A stretch of DNA of 64,000 nt, taken from positions 1,354,519 to 1,418,518 of the forward strand of contig CAWCLJ010000004.1 of the NCBI GenBank assembly GCA_963796365.1. Direction: 5' to 3'. The stretch is from an uncultured Chloroflexia bacterium. Its GTDB lineage: Bacteria > Chloroflexota > Dehalococcoidia > Dehalococcoidales > RBG-16-60-22. Shown here piece by piece: positions 25,519 to 41,254 of the stretch (within the stretch, counting starts at the first letter, position 1; every line of letters starts with the position of its first letter). The translations under genes and the position numbers were made by a program. The notes under the pieces are model-generated. The model was not told where the DNA came from and made no database searches. It saw only the letters and a program-made list of their open reading frames with translations.

Positions 25519-25561
25519 ATTGGTAGGCCGTACAGGATTCGAACCTGTGACCAATGGATTA
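25519..25561 (-). repeat. 43-bp direct repeat of the tRNA-Lys 3' part (distal att site of the island)
   Basis: attggtaggccgtacaggattcgaacctgtgaccaatggatta is identical to 34836-34878. Confidence 0.85.
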
Positions 25562-25583
25562 TGAGTGTTGGGATTCTTACTCA

Positions 25584-25850
25584 TTATCTAGCCTCAACCA
25601 ACCGTTTAGCATTTTTAATAATCTTAGCATTCTTAATTATGATGTTGGTATGGGCTTTAGCTTTTGGAATAGTAAGCCCCTGTTCTTTAAGTAGGGCGAT
25701 ATGTTCTTCCATGCCCCACTTTGCCTTGTAAAGACAATCCTCTATTGAATGTCCTACTCCGGTAAAGCCTTCAAGATCCGGTGAATAGAAGGTAAAAAAC
25801 GTGGGATCTTCTGTTGCTTCTATTATTAAAGAATATTTTAAATCTATCAT
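25584..25850 (-). CDS. hicB: HicB-family antitoxin
   Basis: 88 aa. YSLIIE...FYSPDLEGFTGVGHSIEDC pattern, located directly downstream of hicA. Confidence 0.75.
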   Translation of the reverse strand: MIDLKYSLIIEATEDPTFFTFYSPDLEGFTGVGHSIEDCLYKAKWGMEEHIALLKEQGLTIPKAKAHTNIIIKNAKIIKNAKRLVEAR

Positions 25851-25852
25851 CG

Positions 25853-26050
25853 TTATTTCTCCTTGAGTTTTAGGCCAGCCGCTTTTAATATGGCATTACA
25901 AGTTCCTGTGGGGATCTCCCTAGAACCATGATAATCAAGCCGGATCAATTTGTCTAGCCCTGATTTGCCGTAATAGCGGATTGATCCCTTTTCTCTTACG
26001 ATTTTGAATCCATTTCTTTCCAGGAGTCTTACTAATTCACTGAATTTCAT
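25853..26050 (-). CDS. hicA: HicA-family mRNA interferase toxin
   Basis: 65 aa. MKFSELVRLLERNGFKIVREKGS...H motif. Confidence 0.82.
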   Translation of the reverse strand: MKFSELVRLLERNGFKIVREKGSIRYYGKSGLDKLIRLDYHGSREIPTGTCNAILKAAGLKLKEK

Positions 26051-26360
26051 AACAAAAATCTAATCCATAAAATATATTATGTCTCGCCATACTTTATTTT
26101 TCTATTAAATATTAGCTTAAAATTCATATTTTATCGATATTTTATTAATTAAAGATGGAAAGTAAAATAAAGCTAATTGAACCTCATATCAAAGCTATTT
26201 AGCTTCAATTTCGTATTTTAAATATGTTATCCATAAAATATCAGATTTAAAATAAATAATCAAATCCAAAGATATATATAGAAACATCAGATATAGCTTT
26301 TCCGATTGGCGAGAAATAGAAGGGAGATGATAATTCTTTTATTCTTTACCGAGTTGATTT

Positions 26361-27131
26361 TTATTTAACTTCCTCGTAAAAACCATCTACATTCTGATAA
26401 GGATTCATGGTCTCTGTGTCGGTGCTCTCCACAAAAGTTTTAAACGTTCCAGTATCTACGAATACGGAAACGTGATTTATCGTATTATCACTTGTGGGGT
26501 TGTTTGAATCCATGTAAACAAATTCTATTTTCCATGTTGGAGACATTTCTCTAAGAATACTAGCCGTCAGGATGGCTAAATCCTTACAATCTCCTCCACC
26601 GAATAATAAAGTCTCAAAAGGTAGACGGGGAGTGAATGCTGTCGTTTCACTTGTATAAGGGCAAAGTTGAGTTACCATGTTCCAGACTTCTTTTATTCTA
26701 CTAGCATCATCTGGGTAATTTGAATTAATATCATCAGCTATAGGTTTAAAATTCTCCGGTTCAACATAAGGGATACAGTCAAGACAAGTGAATTGTCCAT
26801 TTATATTTACATGTTTACTCCCGTTGGTAAATCTTTGCGATATCGTGGTTAATCCCTCTTGATTCATTTCAGGAATGGTCATACCACGCATAATATTGCC
26901 TACCACTACAAACGATTCCAAGGTATCTTCATCAAGAGAAAAACCTTTGATTTGATTATCTAAATCGTTAAAAAACCATTGTGCTTGCCTGTTTTTCATT
27001 ATTATATATGGCGCGGTAATAGCGGAGGACAATTGGTTTTGCAAAGACTGCATTTGAGTACAACTTACACTTAAAACTGAAAGAATTAGAATAGCTAGAA
27101 TTGCGACAGCGCACTTAATAAACTTTTTCAT
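26361..27131 (-). CDS. Secreted lipoprotein with transglutaminase-like Cys protease core
   Basis: Signal peptide ending LSVSC. GGGDCKDLAILTASIL (Cys), later INHVSVFVD (His/Asp). Confidence 0.55.
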   Translation of the reverse strand: MKKFIKCAVAILAILILSVLSVSCTQMQSLQNQLSSAITAPYIIMKNRQAQWFFNDLDNQIKGFSLDEDTLESFVVVGNIMRGMTIPEMNQEGLTTISQRFTNGSKHVNINGQFTCLDCIPYVEPENFKPIADDINSNYPDDASRIKEVWNMVTQLCPYTSETTAFTPRLPFETLLFGGGDCKDLAILTASILREMSPTWKIEFVYMDSNNPTSDNTINHVSVFVDTGTFKTFVESTDTETMNPYQNVDGFYEEVK

Positions 27132-27340
27132 TGCATATCACCTTTCAACTGTAAACTGGCGATATATTTAATTATGTTTTTTTAGATATTGAACTCGAAA
27201 TAAAATATCAGCTTCAATTAATATTTTATTAGTCCTTATAGTCTATTATTAGTTAATATTGGTTACTATAGGTATTTTGTGCCTATTTTTTAACCTATTG
27301 GTACTATATTATCAATGATAAAAGGGGGAGATAGGCATTA

Positions 27341-27529
27341 ATGGGCAGAGAGAAACCGGAGGGCAATATTGAACGGATATTTTATAACTTCCGTGAAGCC
27401 CAGGAATTTCTTGGAGTTAGTCACCAAACAATATACAAGCTGATGAAAGATGGATTACCCTCGCATAAGATAAGAAAGAAAAGAGTATTTTTAAAGGAAG
27501 ATTTAGTAAAATGGATTAAAGAGCATTAG
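27341..27529 (+). CDS. Excisionase-family helix-turn-helix DNA-binding protein
   Basis: 62 aa. EAQEFLGVSHQTIYKLMKDG...FLKEDLVKWI. Confidence 0.7.
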   Translation: MGREKPEGNIERIFYNFREAQEFLGVSHQTIYKLMKDGLPSHKIRKKRVFLKEDLVKWIKEH

Positions 27530-27851
27530 AAGCTAGGCTTGATAGTCATAAACGTAAATCTTTCCTAGCACAGGTAGTTAATTTATTGAGGCATTTTTTT
27601 GCTTTTTCATAATTTCCTTCGAAAATAGCATACCAATCTTGTGGATCAGGTTTTTTTTCAGGTTCTTTCCAATATTCTTGGAGTACATCTGATGCTTCTT
27701 GCATTTCTCGGACTAAAACGGCCACCTTTTCGGAGCAAATCAGCCGGCCTTTCGGAGTAAAGTAGGCCACCCTTTCGGAGCAAATCGGCCACCCCCCATT
27801 GGAGCGGCGTCGGACAATACGATGGCATAGAATCACCGTTGGAGGTGATTC

Positions 27852-29402
27852 ATGGCCAACAGGAGATTGTCCGTGCGCAAGATCAAAGAGATTCTACGTT
27901 TAAAATTAGACTGCGGCATCAGCGAGCGGGAGATATCACGGAGCTGCCAGGTCTCCCGGAGCACGGTAGCCGATTATCTCAGAAGAGCAGCGGCCGCCAG
28001 GCTGAGTTGGCCGGAAGCGTCAGCCATGGCCGAGGCCCAGCTCGAAGAGCGCCTGTTTCCCACCGAGCACATACCAAGCTCGGTAAAACGTCCACCGCCG
28101 GACTGCGAGCACATTTACAATGAGTTACGTACCTACCGTAAATTCAACCTGACGCTCTCCCAGTTATGGCTGGAGTACAAAGAAAAACACCCGGACGGCT
28201 ACCAGTACACCCAGTTCTGCGAGCATTACTGGCGGTGGCGGAAAAAGCTCGATTACTGCATGCGCCAGGAGCATCGCGGCGGCGAAAAGCTCTTCATCGA
28301 CTACTCCGATGGACTGTCTATCGTCGACACGGTCACCGGCGAGTTTATTCTCACCCAGCTATTTGTCGCCGTCTGGGGAGCTTCCAACTACACCTATGCC
28401 GAAGCCACCCTGTCGCAAACGTTACCGAATTGGATCGGCTCTCACGGGCGGGCTTTCGAGTACTTTGGTTGTGTACCCCGGGTGCTGGTGCCGGATAATC
28501 TCAAGAGCGGCGTCAGCAAAGCCTGTAAGTACGAGCCTGAGTTAAATCCGACCTACGCAGACATGGCCGAGCACTACGGCTGCGCCGTGCTGCCGGCGCG
28601 TCCGCGGAAACCCAGGGACAAGGCGAAAGTCGAAAGCGGCGTGCTCATCGCCCAGAGGTGGATACTGGCGGTGTTACGCCACCGCACTTTCTACAGCCTC
28701 GTCGAGCTTAATGCCGCTATCCGCGAGTGCCTGGAGCGTCTTAATAGCCGTCCCCTGAAAAAGCTCAAGAAGTCACGCCGGGAGCTGTTTGAAACTATTG
28801 ACCGGCCCAATACTTTACCGCTACCACAGAGACCCTACGAATATGCCGAATGGTATAAGGCCAGGGTACAGCTCAATTACCACATCGAAGTAGACCATCA
28901 TTATTACAGCGTGCCTTACCAGCTTTTACATGAGAGACTGGACATCCGGTTAACCGCGGCGATTATCGAAGCTTTCCACAAGGGTGAGCGCGTCGCCGCC
29001 CATACCCGGTCCTATGCCAAAGGCGGCTACACCACGCTCCCGGAGCACATGCCGCCGTCACACCGCTACTACGCCGAGTGGAACCCGGCCCGGTTTATCC
29101 AGTGGGCGGGCAAGACCGGAGAGGCTACCGCCCGGCTGGTGGAAGCAGTCCTTGCCGGCCGCCCTTACCCGGAGCAGGGCTACAAGGCATGCCTGGGTAT
29201 CATTAACCTGACCCGTGATTACGAACCGGTGCGTGTCGAAGCGGCGGCGCGCCGGGCGCTCAAGTTTAAGACCTGCTCCTACCGGTCGCTGAAGGCCATC
29301 CTGTCCGCCGGGCTCGACCGCCAGCCGGATAACGGCGAGCAGCACAGCCTGCCGGGACTGCCGCCGCACCAGAATATCCGGGGACAGGAATATTACCAAT
29401 GA
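27852..29402 (+). CDS. istA: IS21 transposase IstA
   Basis: 516 aa with an N-terminal HTH (SRSTVADYLRR) and an rve/DDE core. Confidence 0.92.
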   Translation: MANRRLSVRKIKEILRLKLDCGISEREISRSCQVSRSTVADYLRRAAAARLSWPEASAMAEAQLEERLFPTEHIPSSVKRPPPDCEHIYNELRTYRKFNLTLSQLWLEYKEKHPDGYQYTQFCEHYWRWRKKLDYCMRQEHRGGEKLFIDYSDGLSIVDTVTGEFILTQLFVAVWGASNYTYAEATLSQTLPNWIGSHGRAFEYFGCVPRVLVPDNLKSGVSKACKYEPELNPTYADMAEHYGCAVLPARPRKPRDKAKVESGVLIAQRWILAVLRHRTFYSLVELNAAIRECLERLNSRPLKKLKKSRRELFETIDRPNTLPLPQRPYEYAEWYKARVQLNYHIEVDHHYYSVPYQLLHERLDIRLTAAIIEAFHKGERVAAHTRSYAKGGYTTLPEHMPPSHRYYAEWNPARFIQWAGKTGEATARLVEAVLAGRPYPEQGYKACLGIINLTRDYEPVRVEAAARRALKFKTCSYRSLKAILSAGLDRQPDNGEQHSLPGLPPHQNIRGQEYYQ

Positions 29403-29417
29403 AAGGAGTAACAAGCT

Positions 29418-30179
29418 GTGCTTAATCAACAGACTATGTCTATCCTGCACTCATTAAAGCTATACGGTATGGCGAGGAGCCTTGAGGAAAGGCTGGCTGA
29501 CGCTAAACAGGCGGCGCTGTCCCATGACGAATTCGTGGGGCTGCTGGTGCAGGATGAAAAACTGTACCGTGACAATTTGAGGCTCCACCGGCTGCTCAAG
29601 AAGGCCAAGCTCCGCCAGGAAGCCGCCCTGGAGGATATCGACTACGGCGCACCCCGCGGAATTTCCCGGCAGGTAATGCTGGAACTGGCTAATCCCCAGT
29701 GGATAACCGCCCATCGTAACGTACTGGTCAGCGGTCCGACCGGCGTCGGCAAGTCATTTATCGCCTGCGCCCTGGGCAACGCCGCCGCCCGTGCCGGCTA
29801 TACCGTGCTCTATGTACGCGCTCCCCGGCTGTTTGAATCCCTGCAGCAGTCACGCGGAGATGGCTCTCATCTCAAAGCCCTCGCCAGGCTAAGCCGGGTG
29901 CAGCTTTTAATTATCGATGACTTCCTGCTTACCCCGCTGGTAGACGGCGAGCGGAGAGATTTGCTGGAGGTAATCGAGGACCGCTACCAGGCAGGAGCGA
30001 CCATTATCGCCAGCCAGTGCCCGGTTAAAGACTGGCACCCCAACATCGGCGACCCCACCCTGGCCGATGCCGTCTGCGACCGGCTGCTGCACAACGCCTA
30101 CAAGATCGAGATGAGAGGCGATTCCATGCGTACCAGGAGACCGGTTACTAAATCTGAGAAGAAGGAGGACTTGTCCTGA
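29418..30179 (+). CDS. istB: IS21 helper ATPase IstB
   Basis: 253 aa. Walker A GPTGVGKSF, Walker B LLIIDDF. Confidence 0.92.
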   Translation: MLNQQTMSILHSLKLYGMARSLEERLADAKQAALSHDEFVGLLVQDEKLYRDNLRLHRLLKKAKLRQEAALEDIDYGAPRGISRQVMLELANPQWITAHRNVLVSGPTGVGKSFIACALGNAAARAGYTVLYVRAPRLFESLQQSRGDGSHLKALARLSRVQLLIIDDFLLTPLVDGERRDLLEVIEDRYQAGATIIASQCPVKDWHPNIGDPTLADAVCDRLLHNAYKIEMRGDSMRTRRPVTKSEKKEDLS

Positions 30180-30802
30180 GCGAAGTCGAAGGAGATTGAA
30201 AGCGATGAGAAAGTGAGCTAAACTGTACCTTAGTCCGGCGCTGCCAGGGGGTGGCCGATTTGCTCCGAACACCCGGCCGATTTCATCCCGAACACGCGGC
30301 CGATTTTACCGAGATACGCAGCTTCTGGCGAAATTATGAATGCTCCCATATCAGTAGCTCTTCTGATTATATTAAATCCTTCATCAACATGTTTATTAAT
30401 TTCTTTCATTTCTTCTTTAGATTTAGATCTCTTTATTTGTAGTTCTTCATCAAGCAAAGTCCGGTAATAATGAACTAGATCCGAAAGAGCTACTACGATA
30501 TCTTCATAAGCTTTGGCTTTTCTTTCCCACCATCGTTCCGAAGTAAAACGTTTGAAGTTGGTATTGTAGATTGCGATGAGAGATGCTATGAATGCTAAGA
30601 TAGCAGCTATTAGTGTTACAACATTTTCTGCGGACATATACTCCTCCAAATTAATTACAAGAAAACAGATTCATTTCGGGAGTCGAGTTACACTAAGTAT
30701 AAACATGATGTACTTCGCTTTTGATAAAACGAGGTTGCGAAGATTAGGATGTGGTGAAAACAAACGAGCCTACACGAGGTTACTACACTTTATATTTTAT
30801 GG

Positions 30803-31084
30803 CTAAGTTGATTGCTGGAGAATACGATGTGCCTCAATGCAAGCCTTTGCGACGGAAGAGGCTATAGCTAAAATCATTGACTTAGTTTCTAACTCCTGCC
30901 GTGTGTGACTTTCTAAGAAGTGGACGCCGGAAGATGGGAGCCTTTTTGAAATGGCTGCTCTACGTTCCGTTTCATCAAGGACATTCAGATATTTCTTTGC
31001 TTCTTGGCTTTCTACAAGGTATTGCTTAAGGAAAGCGTCCATTATTTGATAATAGGGAATATCCCTCTCATCAAAGTTCTGCAT
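30803..31084 (-). CDS. Hypothetical protein (island)
   Basis: 93-aa ORF, AT-rich, in the same orientation as its neighbours. Confidence 0.4.
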   Translation of the reverse strand: MQNFDERDIPYYQIMDAFLKQYLVESQEAKKYLNVLDETERRAAISKRLPSSGVHFLESHTRQELETKSMILAIASSVAKACIEAHRILQQST

Positions 31085-31170
31085 CTCACACCTCTAACTA
31101 ACAATTTTAGCTTCATTCCATAAGCTATGCAACTCGGAACGAGCAGAAATAATTAATGTTAATTGTTGAC

Positions 31171-31839
31171 TTATATTTTAGAAAAGAAGTAAGAAATACA
31201 ATCGGGACAGATAAACCTTCTCTCGTAAGTACTACCGTCTTTTGTTTCCCTTATGCCGTGTTTATTCTTTCGCTCCGCTAACTCTCTGTTCCAAAACATT
31301 AATCCTTTCTCATCATTCACTGCTTTTTTAAAATTTTCTCTAGCCAAATTTGTAAATTTATTTCCTTCAATGTCACCTATTGCGAAAAAACAACCGCATA
31401 ACTGGCATTTACCTAAAGCAAGATTCTCAAGAAGCTTTAGATTTAACTTTTTTATGGGTTTGTAATAAGGGCTTGAGAGGACTTCTTTGCAATCGTGACC
31501 AATAATTTGTATTAAACCAATCCCAAGATGGTTTGCTATGTAAATTTCGTCAGAACTGAATTGACTATTTCTGAGGTCAGCTAAATAAATCCTATTGGCA
31601 TATACTTTATTTGCTAATGCTTGCCCACTAGCTTTTGCAAACGGCTCCGTTCCCCGTTTTACTTCAACTACTATGGTTTCGATTTCACCAGACAAATCTC
31701 CACCAACATCAGTCACACCTATAACATCGATAATACTATATTTAAGCCCTTTATTTATGTCAGTTTTAAAACAGTGGTGTTTTTCGCTTAACCATTTCTC
31801 AACATCTGGATAAAGGTCTCTTTCTTTTACCTTATTCAT
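31171..31839 (-). CDS. Predicted PD-(D/E)xK-fold nuclease with C-terminal CxxC...CxxC zinc ribbon
   Basis: IIDVIGV...IVVEVKRG (D...ExK). CQLCGC and CPDC. GGAGG precedes the ATG at 31839. Confidence 0.45.
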   Translation of the reverse strand: MNKVKERDLYPDVEKWLSEKHHCFKTDINKGLKYSIIDVIGVTDVGGDLSGEIETIVVEVKRGTEPFAKASGQALANKVYANRIYLADLRNSQFSSDEIYIANHLGIGLIQIIGHDCKEVLSSPYYKPIKKLNLKLLENLALGKCQLCGCFFAIGDIEGNKFTNLARENFKKAVNDEKGLMFWNRELAERKNKHGIRETKDGSTYERRFICPDCISYFFSKI

Positions 31840-31887
31840 ATGCTCCTCCAATTATTTTAAAATTGATTGAATAATGATAAGTCATAT

Positions 31888-32439
31888 TTACTCGTATAAA
31901 CGTTCTATTAGTTTCCTCGTAAAGCTAAGAAATTCGCGTGATTGAATTTCTATTATGCCACCTAAGTTGCTTAAATATAAACCTGGGTAAGTATTAAAAA
32001 GGGTTTCTGCTGAATCTTCATTATTTACTTTTTTCATCTCACTAAGCTTACCTGCATTAGCATGAGCTATAGTGTTCCTTTTTAACCTAATTTTATCGAT
32101 ACCCTTACTTTCTCCTGAAGTGATTATACCGAATTTCCGGCAGAGCCTAGTTTTTTCTAATAAGCCAAGAAGCATGATTACTTCCTTCGTTCCTTTGCCG
32201 TTTGCGATTAATTTATCTTCAAGGGATAGCTCTATAATGCTAGCACACCAAATGATAACGCTAGGAAAATGACCATATATATATAATTGAATAGCCTCAG
32301 CAGAATATTCGCTCAATAATTCCGGCAATTTTGCGTGGTTATATATCACAGGATTTATTTCACTCCATCTTGTTACCCGGTCTTCACAAGTTTCGGCATC
32401 CCTATTCACAATGTATTTGCGAAATTCATTTTTATTCAT
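31888..32439 (-). CDS. HEPN-like (DUF4145/Abi-like) protein
   Basis: 183 aa, helical. An R-x4-H motif (RNTIAH) sits in the C-terminal third. Confidence 0.45.
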   Translation of the reverse strand: MNKNEFRKYIVNRDAETCEDRVTRWSEINPVIYNHAKLPELLSEYSAEAIQLYIYGHFPSVIIWCASIIELSLEDKLIANGKGTKEVIMLLGLLEKTRLCRKFGIITSGESKGIDKIRLKRNTIAHANAGKLSEMKKVNNEDSAETLFNTYPGLYLSNLGGIIEIQSREFLSFTRKLIERLYE

Positions 32440-32875
32440 AGATAGTCCTTGTTAAATACACATATATAGGTTTCTAGCAAAAGACGCATTATATATAATT
32501 TAAAAGAAATGAATATAGAAGTTATAATGCGTATAGCAATTATATAACTCTGCTAGGGGTAAAACAAGATACATCATTTTAGGGCTTATTCAATTATGAC
32601 CTTGCGTCAAAATCTATTTCATAACTTCTTATAATTTATGTTCATGGTCCGCTAACATTTTGATAACGCATGAAAATAAACGATAAAATAAATCAAAGTA
32701 TTTTACGAACAAAATGATTAGCTGGTCTTTTATTGAAAAACACAGGTTTGAACGTAAAAATACTTTGAACTATATCTAACGGCAAGTCCCATATTCGGTG
32801 TCTTTTAATATGGATGCTAGAGTAAATAAGGCGTTCATTTGGTCACTTTTAAAAGAATATTTCCACTTTCCCTTT

Positions 32876-33134
32876 ATTATCTTGATTTGACAGTAAATAG
32901 TGTTATTTTTGCTTCGTTTGGTACTTCACCTCTAAACTCCAATTCTCCTGGTAAAACAAACACTTCATCTTCTTGATTCGCTCTATCGATCGTGAATGGT
33001 AACTAACTCTGATTCACATTGCCATACCTAGATTCAGAATTGATCCCCCTGTATTGGCAAACCAAATAGTACGCTCCGCCCGAGAGTATATTCATTAGTT
33101 TAAAAATTAGTTCTTCCTTCACCCCTAATCCCAT
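32876..33134 (-). pseudogene. Small ORF homologous to the integrase C-terminal extension, with an internal TAG
   Basis: MGLGVKEELIFKLMNILSGGAYYLVCQYRGINSESRYGNVNQS*LPFTIDRANQEDEVFVLPGELEFRGEVPNEAKITLFTVKSR aligns with integrase residues ~400-484. Its ATG overlaps the XRE stop. Confidence 0.5.
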
Positions 33135-33376
33135 TTTTTTGAGCTTCTTTTTTCTTTTGTGAGTTTATCCACTACCTTTTTATCAAAGCTAATTGTTTCC
33201 GGCTTTACTTTCAAAGCTTTGGCTAACTTCCTGATGGTGTTCAACCTCGGCTTTTGTTTTCCTTTTTCAAGTCTATTGATTGTGCTGACAGTCATTTCAG
33301 ACTTTTTTGCTAAATCCTCTTGACTAAGGAACTGTTTTTCTCTTAATTGTTTTATTGTTGTCATACGCGTAATCAT
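33125..33376 (-). CDS. XRE-family helix-turn-helix regulator
   Basis: 83 aa. LREKQFLSQEDLAKKSEMTVSTINRLEKGKQKP. Confidence 0.8.
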   Translation of the reverse strand: MITRMTTIKQLREKQFLSQEDLAKKSEMTVSTINRLEKGKQKPRLNTIRKLAKALKVKPETISFDKKVVDKLTKEKRSSKKWD

Positions 33377-33416
33377 ATGTTAATCATAATGTAATGTCAA
33401 TGTATTTGCATAATAG

Positions 33417-34835
33417 TTATTTTACAACTTTCGGGAATATTTGAATCTGTTCTTTTTCAGACAAATTGAATTCGAATTGGAGTTCTCTTGGCGCAATGTA
33501 TACTTCATCTGCCATACTTGCCTTACCTAATTCGAAAGGCAAATAGGTCTGATTTATGGATTTCAAACTCGCATCTTTATATTTACAAATAATCAAGTAT
33601 TTTCCTTCTGATAAATGCCTTAAATTAGGACAGAATTCCATTTCTTCCTTTACTCTTAATACAGTATTCCTATTAGCTTCAAATAGCTTCAATTCTTTAT
33701 CAAATAAAGCTATTTCAACTTCGATTGCAGGCGAATTTCCATCATTATAGGCAATAAAGTGAGAATGAAAATCGCTTGTAATAGCATTGGGGACTTTTAC
33801 AGAAGGTTTACACATCGCTTTTATAACCACAATCGGTTGTTGTTCGGATTTTGCTAACACTATATTCTGTTTATCAGTAGGTATTTCGCTTTTCTCTTGA
33901 TCTATCAAATCAATTGCATCTTTTAAATGCTTGTCAGTATGTAATGTATATCTTTCTGTATGTACTAAATTGGCATGTCCTAGCAATGACTGAATTTCTC
34001 TGATAGTTGCCCCTTTTTCAGAAAGGGAAGTCGCAAAATAGTCTCTAAGGCTATGTGTATGAATATCAACCCCAGCTTTTGTTGCAAAGAAACGGATTTT
34101 ACCACTTATCGAGGCTGGGACTAAACCAAATAAACTTCCTGTTTTGTCTCTGCCTTTTATATAAGTGTTTAGTTTTCCCATCGTATTTGTTGATAACGGG
34201 ATAACCCTGTCTTTAGCACCTTTGCCTTGCCGGACAATCAAAACCTGTCTTTCGGGATCAATATCCCCTACTTTAAGGTTCGCAAGCTCACTACGCCTTA
34301 ATCCGGTATGAATTGCCAGGTCAACGAGTAGAATATCCCTCTCAATGGTTTTCTTGTGGCTCTTTTTCGATTTTAGAGCGTCCAGAAGCTTTTCAACATC
34401 AGTTTTCTCAACATAAGAGGGCAATATTTTAGGAACACGGATATTAATATCCAAATCTTCTCCATACCATTTGAAAAAGACTTTAAGGATTGCAGCATAA
34501 CGTCCTAGTGTTGTGGGCTTACACTTCATGAATTGGGAAAGAAATGATTTAGCCAATTCGGGAGTAGGGGGATATTCACCCAAATACGAATGAAAGTGAT
34601 TAACTACCCGCTTTGCCTCATGGATTCCTTTTTCAGATCGATGATGAAAAGCTAATTCACCGTCATACAATGCGAATAGTTCGTTATTAGTCTTTTGACG
34701 CAATTCCAAATGTTTCCGTCCTTTGTTACCCAGAAGTATAAACAGTAACTCTCGGAATTGCAATAGTTCTTTAACTTCAGGGAGAACCTGCGACTTTTTG
34801 AGGAAATCTAGAGGAATTTCTTGAGATTTGAATTC
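33417..34835 (-). CDS. Tyrosine recombinase/integrase with ~140-aa C-terminal extension
   Basis: Catalytic R (GLRRSEL), HxxR (HSLRDYF) and Y (HTERYT). The track ORF runs to 34871, but its first 12 codons are tRNA sequence, so the true start is uncertain. Confidence 0.85.
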   Translation of the reverse strand, partial: EFKSQEIPLDFLKKSQVLPEVKELLQFRELLFILLGNKGRKHLELRQKTNNELFALYDGELAFHHRSEKGIHEAKRVVNHFHSYLGEYPPTPELAKSFLSQFMKCKPTTLGRYAAILKVFFKWYGEDLDINIRVPKILPSYVEKTDVEKLLDALKSKKSHKKTIERDILLVDLAIHTGLRRSELANLKVGDIDPERQVLIVRQGKGAKDRVIPLSTNTMGKLNTYIKGRDKTGSLFGLVPASISGKIRFFATKAGVDIHTHSLRDYFATSLSEKGATIREIQSLLGHANLVHTERYTLHTDKHLKDAIDLIDQEKSEIPTDKQNIVLAKSEQQPIVVIKAMCKPSVKVPNAITSDFHSHFIAYNDGNSPAIEVEIALFDKELKLFEANRNTVLRVKEEMEFCPNLRHLSEGKYLIICKYKDASLKSINQTYLPFELGKASMADEVYIAPRELQFEFNLSEKEQIQIFPKVVK

Positions 34836-34837
34836 AT

Positions 34838-34913
34838 TGGTAGGCCGTACAGGATTCGAACCTGTGACCAATGGATTAAAAGTCCACTGCTCTACCAGCT
34901 GAGCTAACGGCCC
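34838..34913 (-). tRNA. tRNA-Lys (anticodon UUU), CCA encoded
   Basis: The reverse complement reads gggccgttagctcagctggtagagcagtggacttttaatccattggtcacaggttcgaatcctgtacggcctacca, which folds as a cloverleaf with anticodon loop cuUUUaa. Confidence 0.9.
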
Positions 34914-35042: not shown

Positions 35043-35930
35043 TCAGGCTAATACGAAGCGCGTGATGAGATACCCGATTAAAGAAAGTACTGTTATTGGG
35101 GGTAACGCCGGCATAGGCTTTCCTTTTAGCCAGTATTGTTGTATCAAAAACGCGCCCATGATGCCGATTAACGCGCAGGCTCCTACCAGCATTGCTCCAT
35201 TTAAACCGTATTTAAAGTAAACAGCCACTGACAGCATTAAAGGAAAACCGATGTCTCCGCCCCCGAGTATCGTATGCTCTCTTTTGGCTGACTCTTCTTT
35301 CTTAAGCTCGCCGAACTGCACATCTTTAATATTTAATCCGACATCGTTTATCTTTTTGGGGAAAATGAAAGCCGGCAGTGAGGAGGAATCGGAAAGTTTG
35401 TCCGCCATCCAGACCATAAAGCCGAACCTTACTGCCAGGAAGTCATAAACGGAAATGATTATCATGAAAATCATAAAAACGAGCGGGGAGACCAGGTATC
35501 CGAAAACGGAAGCGGCCGCCGCCAGGGCGACGAGCAGTAGAATATCATGCAGCCAGATGAAGGAGAAGATTATCCAGGCAAGACCGGCGGCGATAGCAAC
35601 GATGTAGGCGGTAGGGCCGGGGGTATTGATGAGGACGATAAGCATGCCCCAGGCAAACATTAAAGCAAAGACGGCACGGAAAACATATTTTAAAAAGCGC
35701 AGCGGTATGAAAAAAAGCACGACGGCTACTATGATTACCGCCCCGAAAAAGTAACTCAATATCCACCAGAGGGGGGTAGACTGGTCCGGGAGTCCGCCGC
35801 TTGCATAGACCGGCTGATTGGAAGGTGCGATATAAAGGGCCAGCGCCAGCGCGGCGATAAAGAACAGAGCGCTCCAGAGGTAAGGTCCGATTCTTGTTTT
35901 CATGTATTTATTAAGGAATACTGCTTTCAA
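35043..35930 (-). CDS. Presenilin / signal-peptide-peptidase-like intramembrane aspartyl protease (A22 family)
   Basis: 295 aa with about 8-9 TM helices. YD (ISVYDFLAV), GxGD (LGGGDIGFP) and PALP (PMPALPPIT) occur in the canonical order. Confidence 0.7.
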   Translation of the reverse strand: MKAVFLNKYMKTRIGPYLWSALFFIAALALALYIAPSNQPVYASGGLPDQSTPLWWILSYFFGAVIIVAVVLFFIPLRFLKYVFRAVFALMFAWGMLIVLINTPGPTAYIVAIAAGLAWIIFSFIWLHDILLLVALAAAASVFGYLVSPLVFMIFMIIISVYDFLAVRFGFMVWMADKLSDSSSLPAFIFPKKINDVGLNIKDVQFGELKKEESAKREHTILGGGDIGFPLMLSVAVYFKYGLNGAMLVGACALIGIMGAFLIQQYWLKGKPMPALPPITVLSLIGYLITRFVLA

Positions 35931-36053
35931 TATAGCTTATTGGCAGCGATTTCACAATAAGGTTGGATAGGCTTAAGCCTCTTGACAAAACTTAAGCCTT
36001 GTGCTATAAAATATGTACGGATATATTCCGTACAAACTATTGGGGGTTTCAAA

Positions 36054-36323
36054 ATGGCTACTGCTCGGATGGATTTTAGACTAGATAAAAAGATAAAAGA
36101 AAAAGTGGAAAGAGCTTCTGCGTTGCTGGGAAAGAAAAGTACTACAGAATATGTAATAAGCATTATAGATGAGAATGCGACCAAGGTTATTACTGAACAT
36201 GAGAGCATTGTCGTTAAAGATGATATTTTTGACCTTTTTTGGGATGCATGTCAAAAAGTTCGTGAACCCAATAAAGCTCTTCGAGATGCCGTATCCTTCA
36301 CTAAAAATCAAGGTATCAAGTGA
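36054..36323 (+). CDS. DUF1778 (TacA-like) RHH antitoxin
   Basis: MATARMDFRLDKKIKEKVERASALLGKKSTTEYV.... Overlaps the GNAT gene by 4 nt. Confidence 0.78.
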   Translation: MATARMDFRLDKKIKEKVERASALLGKKSTTEYVISIIDENATKVITEHESIVVKDDIFDLFWDACQKVREPNKALRDAVSFTKNQGIK

Positions 36324-36787
36324 ATTGGTCTAAGGAATTTGTAGAACTTAATAAAGCGATTCATGACCGGGATTCCTTTGATTGCGGTGAAGCCGAATTA
36401 AACGAATTCATTCAACAAAGGGCTACTAAACATATGGCGGCTGGCATAAGCACAACTATGATATTGCCGGCAACTGATCCATTACCTAATGGTAAGTACC
36501 CTATTTGCGCATTCTACACAGTTACGCCTAGTTCTATTGCCAGGGATACTTTACCAGAATCACTAAAAAAGAAAATGTCATATTACCCCATACCTGTGTT
36601 TTTGATTGCACAATTAGCTGTTCATAATGAGTGTAAAGGAAAACGTATTGGGGAAATTACATTAGTGAAAGCACTTGAGTACTTATGGAACATTAGTAAA
36701 CATATGAGGGCATACGCGGTTATTGTTGATTGTTTAAACCCAAATGTCGAGCAATTTTATGCCAAATTTGGCTTCCAGGTATTGTGA
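36320..36787 (+). CDS. GNAT-family acetyltransferase toxin (TacT-like)
   Basis: 155 aa. FDCGEAELNEFIQQRA N-terminus typical of TacT-type toxins, and a GNAT core (KGKRIGEITL). Confidence 0.75.
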   Translation: MNWSKEFVELNKAIHDRDSFDCGEAELNEFIQQRATKHMAAGISTTMILPATDPLPNGKYPICAFYTVTPSSIARDTLPESLKKKMSYYPIPVFLIAQLAVHNECKGKRIGEITLVKALEYLWNISKHMRAYAVIVDCLNPNVEQFYAKFGFQVL

Positions 36788-37126: not shown

Positions 37127-38977
37127 ATGTCCAGAGGGTACATGGGAAAAGTACTCAAGGTGGACTTGTCCCAAAAAACATTCAAGGATTACGTTTTAGA
37201 TGAAAAAATGTGCCGTGATTACATCGGCGGGTACGGTCTCGCTGCCAAGCTGCTCTGGGACTGGCAAAAGGGCGGCATCGACCCGCTGGGCGCGGAAGCC
37301 AACCTCGGTTTCATTACCGGGCCGCTGACCGGTACGCCCGCGATATCCGGAACGCGCTTTACGGTCTGCGGGAAATCGCCGTTGACCGGTGGGTGGGGGG
37401 ATGCCAACGGCGGCGGTCATTTTGCGGCATTCTTAAAGTTTGCCGGGTATGACGGCGTCTTTTTATCCGGGATTTCACCAAAACCGGTCTATCTCTATAT
37501 CGAAAACGGTAAGGCGGAACTAAGAGACGCCTCCCATCTCTGGGGCAAAGACTGCTATGAAACGGATGATTTGCTGAAAGCGGAGCTGGGCAAAGATGCG
37601 GAAATCGCCTGCATCGGCCCGGCCGGGGAAAAGCTTTCCCTTATATCCGGCATCGTGCATATGAAAGGCAGTGTCGCCGCGCGCTCCGGACTGGGCGCCG
37701 TTATGGGCTCGAAAAAGCTCAAGGCGGTTGTCGTTAAAGGTAATATGAAAGTACCCGTCGCCGATGAGCCGGGCTTGAAAGAACTGCGCAAGAAAATGAT
37801 GGCGATGATGGGCGGTCATATATCCGTCCTGCGGCAGTTCGGCACCACCTTTACCACCGTCCCCAGCATTGAAGGCGGCGACTCACCAGTAAGAAACTAC
37901 GGCGGGGTGGCACAGACGGATTTCCCGGATGCCGGCGGCTTGAGCGCCGAAGAAGTAGCCAACCGCAGCTTAAAACGTATCGCCTGCTACCAGTGCCCTA
38001 TCGGGTGCGAAGCCGCAATGAAAGCAGGCACTGGCCGGTACAAATGGCCGGAAGGCTCCTACCGCCCGGAATATGAGACTATCGTGATGTTCGGCAGTAA
38101 CTGCCTGAACAATAATATAGACTCGGTCATCAAAGCCAACGACCTTTGCAACCAGTTTGGTATTGATACCATATCAGGCGGTTCGGTAGTGGCTTTCGCT
38201 ATGGAGTGCTACGAGCACGGCATCATCACGAAAAAAGATACCGGCGGGCTGGACCTGTCCTGGGGCAACCACGAGGCCGTGGTCGCGCTGACGGAAATGA
38301 TTTGCAAGCGTGAAGGCATCGGCAATATCCTCGCGGACGGCGTGGCCGTAGCCGCGAAAAAACTCGGCAGAGGCGCGGAACAGTATGCCATGCATGTGCA
38401 CGGCCAGGAAGTGCCCGGCCACAGCCCCATCGCTACCCCGGCCATGGCTACCACCTATGCCGCCAGCGCCACACCGGGACGCCATACCCAGGGCTCATCG
38501 GAACACCATAATAAAGGCCTGTTGCCGGACTTCAACCGGACCCTTTACACTGGCCGAGGCGGGGTTCAAAAGCGGGGCGCCTGCTTCCAGAACTCGCTGA
38601 TGTGCTCCGGATACTGCTTGTTCGTTAACTCGGCTTTCCCGGATGCGGACAATATCGCCTCATTCATGGTGCCGGTAACCGGCTGGCCGGTAACGACCGA
38701 TGAACTGGTGGAGACCGGGGAACGCATCGAGAACATGCGCCAGGCCTTTAACCTGCGCGAGGGCGTCAAGCTAATCGACTTCAAGATTGCCGGGCGGCTG
38801 GTGGGCAAACCTCCTAAGAAGAGCGGCCCGATGGCGGGCGTGACCACGGATAATGATGTCATGCTGAAGGACTACTTTGCCGCGATGGGCTGGGACCCGG
38901 CAACCGGCATGTTGAGTAAGAAGCGGATGGAGGAGCTGGGGATGGGGGATATAGCAAAAGCGCTGAAGCTGAAGTAG
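37127..38977 (+). CDS. aor: Aldehyde:ferredoxin oxidoreductase family (tungstopterin) enzyme
   Basis: 616 aa. N-terminal GYMGKVLKVDLS, 4Fe-4S ligands CYQCPIGC, and an AOR family body. Confidence 0.92.
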   Translation: MSRGYMGKVLKVDLSQKTFKDYVLDEKMCRDYIGGYGLAAKLLWDWQKGGIDPLGAEANLGFITGPLTGTPAISGTRFTVCGKSPLTGGWGDANGGGHFAAFLKFAGYDGVFLSGISPKPVYLYIENGKAELRDASHLWGKDCYETDDLLKAELGKDAEIACIGPAGEKLSLISGIVHMKGSVAARSGLGAVMGSKKLKAVVVKGNMKVPVADEPGLKELRKKMMAMMGGHISVLRQFGTTFTTVPSIEGGDSPVRNYGGVAQTDFPDAGGLSAEEVANRSLKRIACYQCPIGCEAAMKAGTGRYKWPEGSYRPEYETIVMFGSNCLNNNIDSVIKANDLCNQFGIDTISGGSVVAFAMECYEHGIITKKDTGGLDLSWGNHEAVVALTEMICKREGIGNILADGVAVAAKKLGRGAEQYAMHVHGQEVPGHSPIATPAMATTYAASATPGRHTQGSSEHHNKGLLPDFNRTLYTGRGGVQKRGACFQNSLMCSGYCLFVNSAFPDADNIASFMVPVTGWPVTTDELVETGERIENMRQAFNLREGVKLIDFKIAGRLVGKPPKKSGPMAGVTTDNDVMLKDYFAAMGWDPATGMLSKKRMEELGMGDIAKALKLK

Positions 38978-41253: not shown

Positions 41254-41254
41254 T

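What the first reader, a model, noticed from the sequence alone, without database searches (positions are those of the whole stretch)
35043..35930. Presenilin/SPP-type (GxGD) intramembrane aspartyl protease in a bacterial context
This polytopic 295-aa protein carries the three hallmark motifs in canonical order and in predicted TM segments: YD (VYDFLAV), GxGD (LGGGDIGFP) and PALP (MPALPPI). From memory, characterised homologs are eukaryotic and archaeal, and bacterial members are rare and unstudied. The gene sits immediately outside the island, next to the tRNA-Lys.
Basis: partly seen in the sequence, partly recalled or inferred. Interest (0 to 1): 0.6.

Follow-up and report, generated by a model that had tools for sequence, protein, structure and literature searches.

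The report
Bacterial presenilin-type intramembrane aspartyl protease
This gene of a Dehalococcoidales bacterium does encode a nine-helix membrane protease of the presenilin family (the family of the Alzheimer's γ-secretase core), but such genes are common and already labelled in this bacterial group and in CPR bacteria, so it is a correct, fairly ordinary identification of an unstudied enzyme.

Summary
An ORF on the minus strand at 35043-35930 encodes a polytopic protein with YD, GGGD and PALP in canonical order. The real start is most likely the ATG at 35903, giving 286 aa rather than 295.

- The protein matches the archaeal presenilin homologue PSH over its full length, by sequence and by profile, with both catalytic Asp aligned.
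- The AlphaFold model (pLDDT 94.7) has nine TM helices. Its only significant PDB matches are PSH, SPPL2a and presenilin-1.
- Charge distribution predicts presenilin-like N-in/C-out topology, with both Asp near the cytoplasmic leaflet.

The claim that bacterial members are rare is outdated. Hundreds of homologues exist in Dehalococcoidales/Dehalococcoidia, and NCBI and JGI already name them presenilin-family proteases. The next-nearest relatives (~30% identity) that I could place are also bacterial: Paceibacterota, Yanofskybacteria and contigs with bacterial gene contexts. They are not archaeal.

The gene has backbone GC content and lies just outside a 9.3-kb island bounded by tRNA-Lys att repeats. 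It has no conserved partner genes.

The best explanation is a stand-alone di-aspartyl intramembrane protease. Its substrates are unknown, and I found no paper on bacterial members. It is a new member of a known kind, of modest interest.

The parts
35043..35903 (-). Coding sequence (286 aa plus stop) of the presenilin-family intramembrane aspartyl protease, from the ATG start supported by homologues
   Evidence: ORF. The 286-aa start is supported by homologue lengths and N-termini and by the exact product on record. Family assignment rests.
35904..35930 (-).
   Evidence: Conservation begins at MKTRIG. A promoter-like -10 (TATATT, ending at 35929) overlaps the TTG, but this is a consensus match only and is not above chance.
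35427..35486 (-). TM6 (residues 140-159) carrying the first catalytic Asp
   Evidence: AF2 helix H140-159. It aligns to TM6 of PSH.
35442..35447 (-). YD motif (Y153-D154); D154 is the first catalytic aspartate
   Evidence: The sequence reads tat gac. D is invariant in 108/108 and Y in 107/108. D154 aligns to PSH D162 (residue identity from PMC7248309).
35253..35264 (-). GxGD motif (G214-G215-G216-D217) at the cytoplasmic start of TM7; D217 is the second catalytic aspartate
   Evidence: The sequence reads ggg ggc gga gac. G214, G216 and D217 are invariant in 108/108. D217 aligns to PSH D220.
35208..35261 (-). TM7 (residues 215-232)
   Evidence: AF2 helix H215-232.
35100..35111 (-). PALP motif (P265-A266-L267-P268) immediately before TM9
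   Evidence: The sequence reads ccg gcg tta ccc. P268 is invariant, A266 is present in 104/108 and L267 in 106/108. TM9 is H267-285.
35262..35426 (-). Cytoplasmic TM6-TM7 loop (residues 160-214) with a short helix and a two-stranded beta element (178-182, 210-214) abutting the GxGD motif
   Evidence: AF2 secondary structure. The loop has 8 K/R in the query and a family mean of 8.0, which places it in the cytoplasm.
34838..34913 (-). Context only: tRNA-Lys(UUU) downstream of the gene, serving as the attachment site of the neighbouring island
   Evidence: ARAGORN. The adjacency to the protease gene is not conserved in 16 related loci.
25519..34878 (.). Context only: ~9.3-kb integrative island bounded by exact 43-bp direct repeats (25519-25561 and 34836-34878). 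The protease gene lies outside it.
   Evidence: Repeats. Integrase PF00589 and IS21 istA/istB. Island GC is 0.41 against 0.50 for the backbone.

Best explanation
The gene encodes a stand-alone, nine-transmembrane, di-aspartyl intramembrane-cleaving protease of the presenilin/PSH superfamily (MEROPS A22, Pfam PF06550). It belongs to a subfamily conserved across the sampled Dehalococcoidales/Dehalococcoidia genomes.

Shown here:
- The protein has the presenilin fold.
- It has N-in/C-out topology.
- D154 in TM6 and D217 at the cytoplasmic start of TM7 align to the catalytic pair of PSH.
- The PALP motif precedes TM9.
- All these residues are invariant in the family.
- No conserved partner genes are present.

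Inferred from PSH, SPP and gamma-secretase biochemistry:
- The helical membrane anchor of a single-pass substrate enters laterally.
- The substrate unwinds near its cytoplasmic end and pairs with the small beta element in front of GxGD.
- It is then hydrolysed by water activated between the two aspartates in a cavity open to the cytoplasm.
- No nicastrin, APH-1 or PEN-2-type cofactors and no autoproteolysis are needed.

Inferred more weakly: because the topology is presenilin-like rather than SPP-like, the preferred substrates would be N-out/C-in (type I) membrane stubs. These would be anchors left after ectodomain or surface-protein processing. The physiological role would be membrane housekeeping or regulated release of cytoplasmic tails. 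The substrates themselves are unknown.
For: Sequence and profile:
- NF041679 (PSH) gives E=1.4e-14 over residues 14-281 of 286.
- phmmer to 4hyc_A PSH gives E=9.3e-6 across the full length, with both Asp and the PAL motif aligned.
- hhalign of the Dehalococcoidales clade against Thermoplasma PSH gives probability 97.5%, E=7.7e-12 over 236 columns.
- An 80%-identical homologue passes the Pfam PF06550 gathering score, 40.8 against 23.9 bits.

Structure:
- The AF2 model has pLDDT 94.7 and pTM 0.93, with nine TM helices.
- The Foldseek top 22 hits are all PSH, SPPL2a or PS1, with TM-scores of 0.6-0.73 for the top 19. Probability then collapses below 0.15.

Conservation: D154, G214, G216, D217 and P268 are invariant in 108/108.

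Topology: K/R are concentrated in the N-terminus, the TM2/3 junction, L6-7 and L8-9, and are near zero in the alternate loops. This matches PSH, whose aspartates lie in a cavity open to the cytoplasm about 8 A from the surface (PMC7248309).

Stand-alone enzyme: no conserved neighbour across 24 loci. Archaeal PSH works without cofactors (PMC2947513).

Native gene:
- GC 0.489 and GC3 0.578 fall within the backbone range.
- There is synteny at 76-84% aa identity with Dehalococcoidales MAG R24_90.
- A homologue with all motifs occurs in a complete Dehalogenimonas genome.
Against: - No biochemical evidence exists for any bacterial member.
- The window protein scores only 54 bits against the archaeal PSH equivalog model (cutoff 125), so it is not an orthologue of the characterised enzyme.
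- The Pfam scan of the window protein itself returned nothing. I attribute this to HMMER filters but could not prove it.
- The segment after YD differs from other PSH relatives (RFGFMVWMADK instead of YKTKHMVxMA), so substrate gating could differ.
- Substrate orientation and physiological role are inference only.
Confidence: 0.82

Rival explanations
1. Same enzyme family, but it acts as a signal-peptide peptidase. It would clear N-in/C-out (type II) signal-peptide remnants left by signal peptidase, as eukaryotic SPP does and as the Pfam name 'SPP' suggests.
For: Pfam files the prokaryotic family under PF06550 'Signal-peptide peptidase, presenilin aspartyl protease'. The gene looks like a single-copy housekeeping gene without regulatory partners, which fits a general clearance role.
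Against: The predicted topology is N-in/C-out with a cytoplasmic TM6-7 loop. That is the presenilin/PSH orientation. From established knowledge, SPP/SPPL enzymes have the opposite orientation and this correlates with type II substrates. PSH cleaves the type I substrate APP C99/C100 in vitro (PMC2947513, PMC9282858). At least one related bacterial genome also carries an M50 site-2 protease gene, a family whose member RseP is known to clear small membrane peptides (PMC10470546).
Confidence: 0.2
2. The protein keeps the fold but its main role is not proteolysis.
Against: There is strict invariance of both aspartates, both GxGD glycines and the PAL proline in 108/108 sequences spanning about 25-80% identity. 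This is what purifying selection on catalysis predicts.
Confidence: 0.05
3. The gene is a recent horizontal acquisition from archaea, possibly associated with the adjacent tRNA-Lys island.
For: The family was first characterised in archaea. The gene sits 130 bp from an integration hot spot.
Against: - The gene lies outside the 43-bp att repeats.
- Its GC (0.489) and GC3 (0.578) match backbone genes, not the island (0.35-0.36).
- Orthologues occur in 24 Dehalococcoid* genomes, with identity falling with taxonomic distance from 76% to 37% in Dehalogenimonas. They lie in different contexts without the tRNA.
- The query scores higher against CPR bacterial proteins (48-63 bits) than against labelled archaeal ones (18-39 bits).
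- Its nearest outgroup, P0136/P0271, lies in a bacterial ribosomal-protein/rpoA/MreB context.
- In a rough NJ tree the labelled archaeal sequences fall outside the grouping that holds all bacterial ones, though with weak support.
Confidence: 0.04
4. It is an unrelated polytopic membrane protein, or a type IV prepilin peptidase/FlaK-type (A24) GxGD protease, with chance YD/PAL motifs.
For: A24 enzymes also carry GxGD. The Pfam scan of the window protein gave no hit.
Against: No A24 or other family hit appeared even at E<=10 for the protein or six relatives. No FlaK structure is among the structural matches, which are exclusively presenilin-fold down to rank 22. The full-length alignment to PSH includes the PAL motif.
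Confidence: 0.01

Closest known systems
PSH / MCMJR1, the archaeal presenilin homologue of Methanoculleus marisnigri JR1 (PDB 4HYC/4HYD/4HYG/4Y6K)
   Same: Similar size (286 against 301 aa) and nine TM helices. YD lies in TM6, GxGD in TM7 and PAL before TM9. The catalytic Asp align (D154/D217 to D162/D220). The TM6-7 loop is short and cytoplasmic. It is a stand-alone protein without cofactor genes. The best structural matches have TM-scores of 0.63-0.73.
   Different: Only about 18% identity in the structural alignment, and 54 bits against the PSH equivalog model (cutoff 125). The host is bacterial. The 'YRTKHM' segment after TM6 is replaced by the hydrophobic 'RFGFMVWM'. No activity data exist.
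Presenilin-1/2, catalytic subunit of eukaryotic gamma-secretase
   Same: Same fold and the same three motifs. The predicted N-in/C-out topology is the same. There is a beta element in front of GxGD, at the position where PS1 pairs with substrate.
   Different: There is no long TM6-7 loop that would require endoproteolysis. No nicastrin, APH-1 or PEN-2 partners are expected, and no conserved neighbours were found. The protein is much shorter.
Signal peptide peptidase / SPPL2a (PDB 9K92/9K93)
   Same: Same fold and motifs, and a stand-alone enzyme. The Foldseek match has E about 1e-5 and TM-score about 0.65. Pfam groups the prokaryotic family under the name 'SPP'.
   Different: By established knowledge SPP/SPPL enzymes have the inverted membrane orientation and cleave type II anchors. 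The charge distribution here predicts the presenilin orientation.
Presenilin-family proteins of CPR/Patescibacteria (Paceibacterota, Yanofskybacteria) as named by NCBI
   Same: Bacterial, about 270-290 aa, with the same invariant residues. At 25-33% identity they are the nearest relatives outside Dehalococcoidia that could be taxonomically placed.
   Different: They retain the archaeal-like 'AVYKTKHMV' segment. They score higher on PF06550 (57-69 bits against about 36-48). In three contigs read they sit close to thioredoxin/DsbA-type genes, which was not noted next to the Dehalococcoidales genes.
Type IV prepilin peptidase / FlaK (MEROPS A24)
   Same: A GxGD di-aspartyl membrane protease that is widespread in bacteria.
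   Different: A different fold, no PAL motif, and aspartates not arranged on adjacent TM6/TM7. No sequence or structure match was found here.

Membership tests
Presenilin/SPP/PSH superfamily (MEROPS A22; Pfam PF06550/PF01080/PF04258) | Nine-TM presenilin fold | tested here: met
   The AF2 model (pLDDT 94.7) has nine TM helices. The Foldseek top 22 PDB hits are all PSH, SPPL2a or PS1, with TM-scores up to 0.73.
Presenilin/SPP/PSH superfamily (MEROPS A22; Pfam PF06550/PF01080/PF04258) | First catalytic Asp in a YD motif within TM6 | tested here: met
   Y153-D154 lie inside helix 140-159. D is invariant in 108/108. It aligns to PSH D162.
Presenilin/SPP/PSH superfamily (MEROPS A22; Pfam PF06550/PF01080/PF04258) | Second catalytic Asp in a GxGD motif in TM7 | tested here: met
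   G214-G-G-D217 lie at the cytoplasmic start of helix 215-232. G, G and D are invariant. D217 aligns to PSH D220.
Presenilin/SPP/PSH superfamily (MEROPS A22; Pfam PF06550/PF01080/PF04258) | PAL motif N-terminal to TM9 | tested here: met
   P265-A-L-P268 directly precede helix 267-285.
Presenilin/SPP/PSH superfamily (MEROPS A22; Pfam PF06550/PF01080/PF04258) | Significant profile-level sequence similarity | tested here: met
   NF041679 gives E=1.4e-14. hhalign gives 97.5% probability, E=7.7e-12. phmmer to PDB PSH gives E=9e-6.
Presenilin/SPP/PSH superfamily (MEROPS A22; Pfam PF06550/PF01080/PF04258) | Intramembrane aspartyl protease activity sensitive to Asp mutation or transition-state inhibitors | not testable with these tools
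   Needs biochemistry. No paper on a bacterial member was found.
Pfam PF06550 (SPP, prokaryotic presenilin homologues) | Score at or above the gathering threshold (23.9 bits) | tested here: inconclusive
   hmmscan reported nothing for the window protein, even at E<=10. Homologues at 80%, 61% and 45% identity score 40.8, 35.9 and 48 bits, and most close homologues carry a precomputed PF06550 hit. This is probably a speed or bias-filter loss. It needs hmmsearch --max.
NCBIfam NF041679, archaeal PSH equivalog | Whole-protein score at or above 125 bits | tested here: not met
   The score is 54.4 bits. None of the 108 relatives in A1 did better than E=4.4e-32. The protein is a relative, not an equivalog of archaeal PSH.
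Gamma-secretase-type presenilin (complex-dependent) | Obligatory partners (nicastrin, APH-1, PEN-2) and endoproteolysis of a long TM6-7 loop | tested here: not met
   No conserved neighbouring genes across 24 loci. The loop is only about 55 residues. A genome-wide search for partners was not possible from a 64-kb window.
Eukaryotic-type SPP/SPPL | Inverted topology (N-terminus out, TM6-7 loop non-cytoplasmic) | tested here: not met
   The positive-inside analysis puts the N-terminus, L6-7 (8 K/R) and L8-9 in the cytoplasm. This is a prediction only.
Type IV prepilin peptidase / FlaK (MEROPS A24) | Peptidase_A24 profile match and FlaK-like fold | tested here: not met
   No A24 hit at E<=10. No FlaK structure is among the Foldseek hits.

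The most novel reading that the evidence does not exclude
Presenilin-family intramembrane proteases are not an archaeal/eukaryotic speciality with stray bacterial copies. On this reading they are long-standing, vertically inherited genes of at least two deep bacterial lineages with atypical envelopes, Dehalococcoidia and CPR/Patescibacteria. These would form bacterial clades distinct from archaeal PSH. The Dehalococcoidia clade would have remodelled the segment after TM6 (RFGFMVWMADK), which lies near the substrate-docking region in presenilin. If true, the fold either predates the bacteria-archaea split or crossed domains very early. Cultivable Dehalogenimonas or Dehalococcoides could then become the first bacterial system for finding natural substrates of a presenilin homologue.
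Probability: 0.35. Interest if true: 0.5.

Novelty: new member of a known kind. Interest (0 to 1): 0.3.

Why it matters
Natural substrates of prokaryotic presenilin homologues are unknown even for the crystallised archaeal PSH (PMC2947513, PMC4343526). Reviews usually present the family as eukaryotic plus archaeal.

This work shows that a well-conserved bacterial subfamily exists in Dehalococcoidia, including a complete Dehalogenimonas genome, and that related clades exist in CPR bacteria. That offers additional, possibly more tractable, systems for studying mechanism and physiological role. It also bears on how old the presenilin fold is.

For this particular window the result is mainly a confirmation of an annotation that public pipelines already make. 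The gene is not linked to the neighbouring mobile island.

Tried and rejected
- **Pfam on the window protein.** The direct hmmscan (295- and 286-aa versions) gave no hit. I treat this as a filter artefact because close homologues pass PF06550.
- **tRNA-Lys adjacency.** I tested whether it is conserved. It is not: 0 of 16 related loci have it.
- **Conserved operon partners.** Across 24 Dehalococcoid* loci plus the window I found none. Recurrent neighbours are generic: ABC exporters, universal stress protein, hydrogenase subunits and flavodoxin.
- **Phylogeny.** The first NJ attempt timed out. The second worked but has weak bootstrap support on the deep nodes. I use it only as weak corroboration.
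- **Literature.** Several queries were too broad. Targeted queries found no paper linking presenilin homologues with Dehalococcoidia or Chloroflexi and none using the phrase 'bacterial presenilin'.
- **Rejected readings.** I rejected a type IV prepilin peptidase identity, a chance motif match, and recent archaeal HGT via the island.
- **Profile search.** The profile search with distant relatives was limited by the word prefilter to 38 hits, so it cannot be used for counting.
Full report

The ORF listing finds an ORF at 35043..35930 on the minus strand, 295 aa from a TTG. Its translation contains VYDFLAV, LGGGDIGFP and MPALPPI in that order.

The start needs correcting. The 120 best homologues are almost all 286-287 aa. 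In the alignment, conservation starts at MK(T/I)RIGPYLW. The exact 286-aa product starting at the ATG at 35903 is what a gene caller recorded on a public assembly contig. A sigma-70-like -10 hexamer overlaps the TTG, but such matches are not above chance in this region. I use 286-aa numbering below: Y153-D154, G214-G215-G216-D217 and P265-A-L-P268.

**2. What organism and what context?**

A scan of one genome per GTDB species found 24 loci encoding relatives. Of these, 22 are titled Dehalococcoidales, Dehalococcoidaceae, Dehalococcoidia or Dehalogenimonas, one 'uncultured Chloroflexi' and one (a 1.8-kb contig) 'Bacteroidales'. The best is 76% identical, and a complete Dehalogenimonas genome has a 37%-identical copy.

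The window is syntenic with the best MAG. The divergent pair of ABC exporter genes is 79-84% identical, and two further genes are 62-75% identical. The window is thus from a Dehalococcoidales bacterium (Chloroflexota).

tRNA-Lys(UUU) lies at 34838-34913 (-), 130 bp downstream of the gene. An exact 43-bp repeat of the tRNA 3' part, at 25519-25561 and 34836-34878, bounds a ~9.3-kb island. The island has low GC and carries a tyrosine integrase and a nested IS21.

The protease gene lies outside the repeats. Its GC is 0.489 and GC3 0.578. Backbone genes have GC 0.49-0.57, whereas island genes have 0.35-0.36. The tRNA adjacency is absent from all 16 related loci checked.

**3. What is the protein?**

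Sequence evidence:
- NCBIfam NF041679 ('presenilin family intramembrane aspartyl protease PSH') matches residues 14-281 to profile positions 5-279 of 281, at E=1.4e-14. The score of 54 bits is far below the equivalog cutoff of 125.
- phmmer against all PDB sequences finds only the Methanoculleus marisnigri PSH (4hyc and related entries), at E=9.3e-6. The alignment is full length and puts D154 on PSH D162, D217 on D220 and PALP on PSH's PAL region.
- hhalign of a 39-sequence Dehalococcoidales-clade alignment against Thermoplasma acidophilum PSH gives 97.5% probability, E=7.7e-12 over 236 columns.
- Pfam hmmscan returned nothing for the window protein itself. It did give PF06550 above the gathering score for homologues that are 80%, 61% and 45% identical (40.8, 35.9 and 48 bits against a cutoff of 23.9). 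Most close homologues carry a precomputed PF06550 hit. I read the miss as a HMMER speed or bias-filter loss on a very hydrophobic sequence, but I could not run --max to prove it.

Structure evidence:
- AlphaFold2 with a 108-sequence alignment gives pLDDT 94.7 and pTM 0.93.
- The helices are 6-35, 45-65, 68-90, 98-112, 116-137, 140-159, 215-232, 234-258 and 267-285.
- There is also a short helix at 162-171 and two short strands at 178-182 and 210-214.
- Foldseek against the PDB returns 22 hits that are all PSH, human SPPL2a or presenilin-1 in gamma-secretase. For the top 19, TM-scores are 0.6-0.73 and probability is 1.00. After rank 22 the probability drops below 0.15.

Conservation: across 108 relatives spanning about 25-80% identity, D154, V158, M163, G214, G216, D217 and P268 are invariant. 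Y153, A157, P221, A266 and L267 are nearly invariant.

**4. Topology and active site**

K+R counts were taken per loop from the AF2 helix boundaries and averaged over the clade.
- Cytoplasmic side: the N-terminus (1.9), the start of TM3 (R69, K72, R76), L4-5 (0.9), L6-7 (8.0) and L8-9 (1.9).
- Outside: L1-2, L3-4, L5-6, L7-8 and the C-terminus, all about 0.

This is the nine-TM N-in/C-out arrangement of presenilin and PSH. D154 sits five residues from the cytoplasmic end of TM6, and D217 two residues into TM7 from the cytoplasm. That corresponds to PSH, whose aspartates lie in a cavity open to the cytoplasm about 8 A below the surface (PMC7248309).

Neither is met.

**5. How it most likely works**

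Shown here: the fold, the motifs, the topology and the lack of conserved partner genes.

Inferred from the characterised relatives:
- Archaeal PSH/MCMJR1 is active without cofactors and cleaves TM substrates including APP C99/C100 (PMC2947513, PMC9282858).
- Substrate docking is coupled to unwinding of the TM helix, and in gamma-secretase the substrate forms a hybrid beta-sheet next to the GxGD motif (PMC7248309).
- The strand 210-214 directly before G214-D217, paired with strand 178-182 in the model, is positioned like that element.

I therefore propose a stand-alone di-aspartyl intramembrane protease. It would cleave the membrane anchor of single-pass proteins or stubs near the cytoplasmic leaflet. 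Because the orientation is presenilin-like rather than SPP-like, I favour N-out/C-in substrates over signal peptides. This step rests only on the known correlation between orientation and substrate type in eukaryotic enzymes. The physiological substrates are unknown.

**6. Is it rare in bacteria, and did it come from archaea?**

It is not rare in present-day databases.
- The first search found 920 proteins at E<=1e-3 among the scored candidates. All of the best 120 are at least 56% identical. Many are named by JGI 'presenilin-like A22 family membrane protease' and by NCBI 'presenilin family intramembrane aspartyl protease [Dehalococcoidales / Chloroflexota bacterium]'.
- An exhaustive HMMER scan of 1.84 billion 50%-cluster representatives found 439 clusters at E<=1e-3, 147 at <=1e-10 and 12 at <=1e-30.

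The relatives just outside the Dehalococcoidia clade are about 25-33% identical. All that I could place are bacterial.
- NCBI names several as Candidatus Paceibacterota, Yanofskybacteria or 'bacterium'.
- Three contigs I read carry bacterial hallmark genes. One has infA-S13-S11-S4-rpoA-L17, MurA, MreB, DNA pol III delta', RRF and M50. One has HtrA, DsbA and DAGK_prokar. One has S20, RuvA, Mur ligase and YkuD.

The query scores 48-63 bits against labelled CPR proteins and 18-39 bits against labelled archaeal ones. A rough NJ tree places the labelled archaeal sequences (Methanoculleus, Thermoplasma, Thermoplasmata, Altiarchaeota) outside the grouping that holds all bacterial ones, but the deep nodes have weak support.

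Together with the native composition and the decline of identity with taxonomic distance inside Dehalococcoidia, there is no sign of a recent archaeal transfer. An ancient interdomain transfer cannot be excluded.

**7. Literature**

In the held library I found no paper containing both 'presenilin' and 'Dehalococcoid*'. There was none with the phrase 'bacterial presenilin' and none mentioning PF06550, COG3389 or DUF1119. The eight papers with both 'presenilin' and 'Chloroflex*' concern Alzheimer's disease and the microbiome, periodontal disease, acupuncture or archaeal genomics, not this protein. Reviews of prokaryotic membrane proteases list the A22 family only for archaea (PMC4343526, PMC9380251). 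'Unstudied' therefore seems fair. 'Unannotated' is not.

**8. Verdict**

The identification is correct and robust. The protein is a bacterial member of the presenilin/PSH superfamily. It is not an equivalog of archaeal PSH. It belongs to a conserved, native Dehalococcoidia subfamily with one clade-specific change after TM6 (RFGFMVWMADK in place of YKTKHMVxMA).

Automatic pipelines already give this name to its close relatives, so the novelty is that of a new member of a known kind.

The wider point has moderate interest. Presenilin homologues appear widespread in Dehalococcoidia and CPR bacteria, yet they are absent from the literature I could search. It would need a proper taxon-labelled phylogeny and biochemistry.

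Noticed in passing
window 25519-34878: A ~9.3-kb integrative island at tRNA-Lys(UUU), bounded by exact 43-bp direct repeats (25519-25561 and 34836-34878). GC is 0.41 against 0.50 for the backbone. It carries a tyrosine integrase at 33417-34871 (-), a small 83-aa ORF at 33125-33376 (-) that looks like an HTH regulator by eye (not scanned), a transglutaminase-like secreted protein at 26361-27131 (-) and several ORFs without family matches.
   Followed up: partly
window 27852-30179: An IS21-family element (istA 27852-29402, istB 29418-30179) with GC about 0.58 is nested inside the low-GC island. This indicates a secondary insertion.
   Followed up: partly
window 35982-36787: A TacA-like antitoxin (PF08681, 35982-36323 +) overlaps a GNAT acetyltransferase toxin-like gene (36320-36787 +). 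GC is 0.36-0.38. The pair is absent from the syntenic Dehalococcoidales MAG (L002), so it is probably a recent insertion between the protease gene and the AOR/ABC genes.
   Followed up: partly
window 37127-38977: An aldehyde:ferredoxin oxidoreductase (AFOR_N plus AFOR_C, 616 aa), also present next to the protease gene in L003. Downstream at 39472-43060 is a pair of ABC exporter genes that is syntenic with L002.
   Followed up: partly
window 35415-35441 (residues 155-163); alignments A1/A3: The Dehalococcoidales clade has 'AVRFGFMVWMADK' directly after the YD motif. CPR and archaeal relatives have the basic 'AVYKTKHMVxMA'. This is a clade-specific change in the segment leading from TM6 into the substrate-facing loop, and its consequence is unknown.
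   Followed up: no
L026 8501-10861; L027 267-2627; L028 10001-11968: In CPR-like bacterial contigs the presenilin homologue lies within one or two genes of thioredoxin/peroxiredoxin-fold, glutaredoxin or DsbA-like genes. This occurs in two independent gene contexts (L026 and L027 share one, L028 is the other). It may be a functional association, and it was not noted next to the Dehalococcoidales genes.
   Followed up: no
window 35043-35903 (tool behaviour): Pfam hmmscan reports no family for this protein even at E<=10. An 80%-identical homologue scores 40.8 bits on PF06550. Annotation pipelines relying on default HMMER filters could miss this gene.
   Followed up: partly
L015 (JALHSP010000091.1, 1822 bp): A 54%-identical copy sits on a 1.8-kb contig binned as a 'Bacteroidales' MAG. 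Given its similarity to Dehalococcoidales sequences and the short contig, this is more likely a binning error than a real Bacteroidales gene.
   Followed up: no
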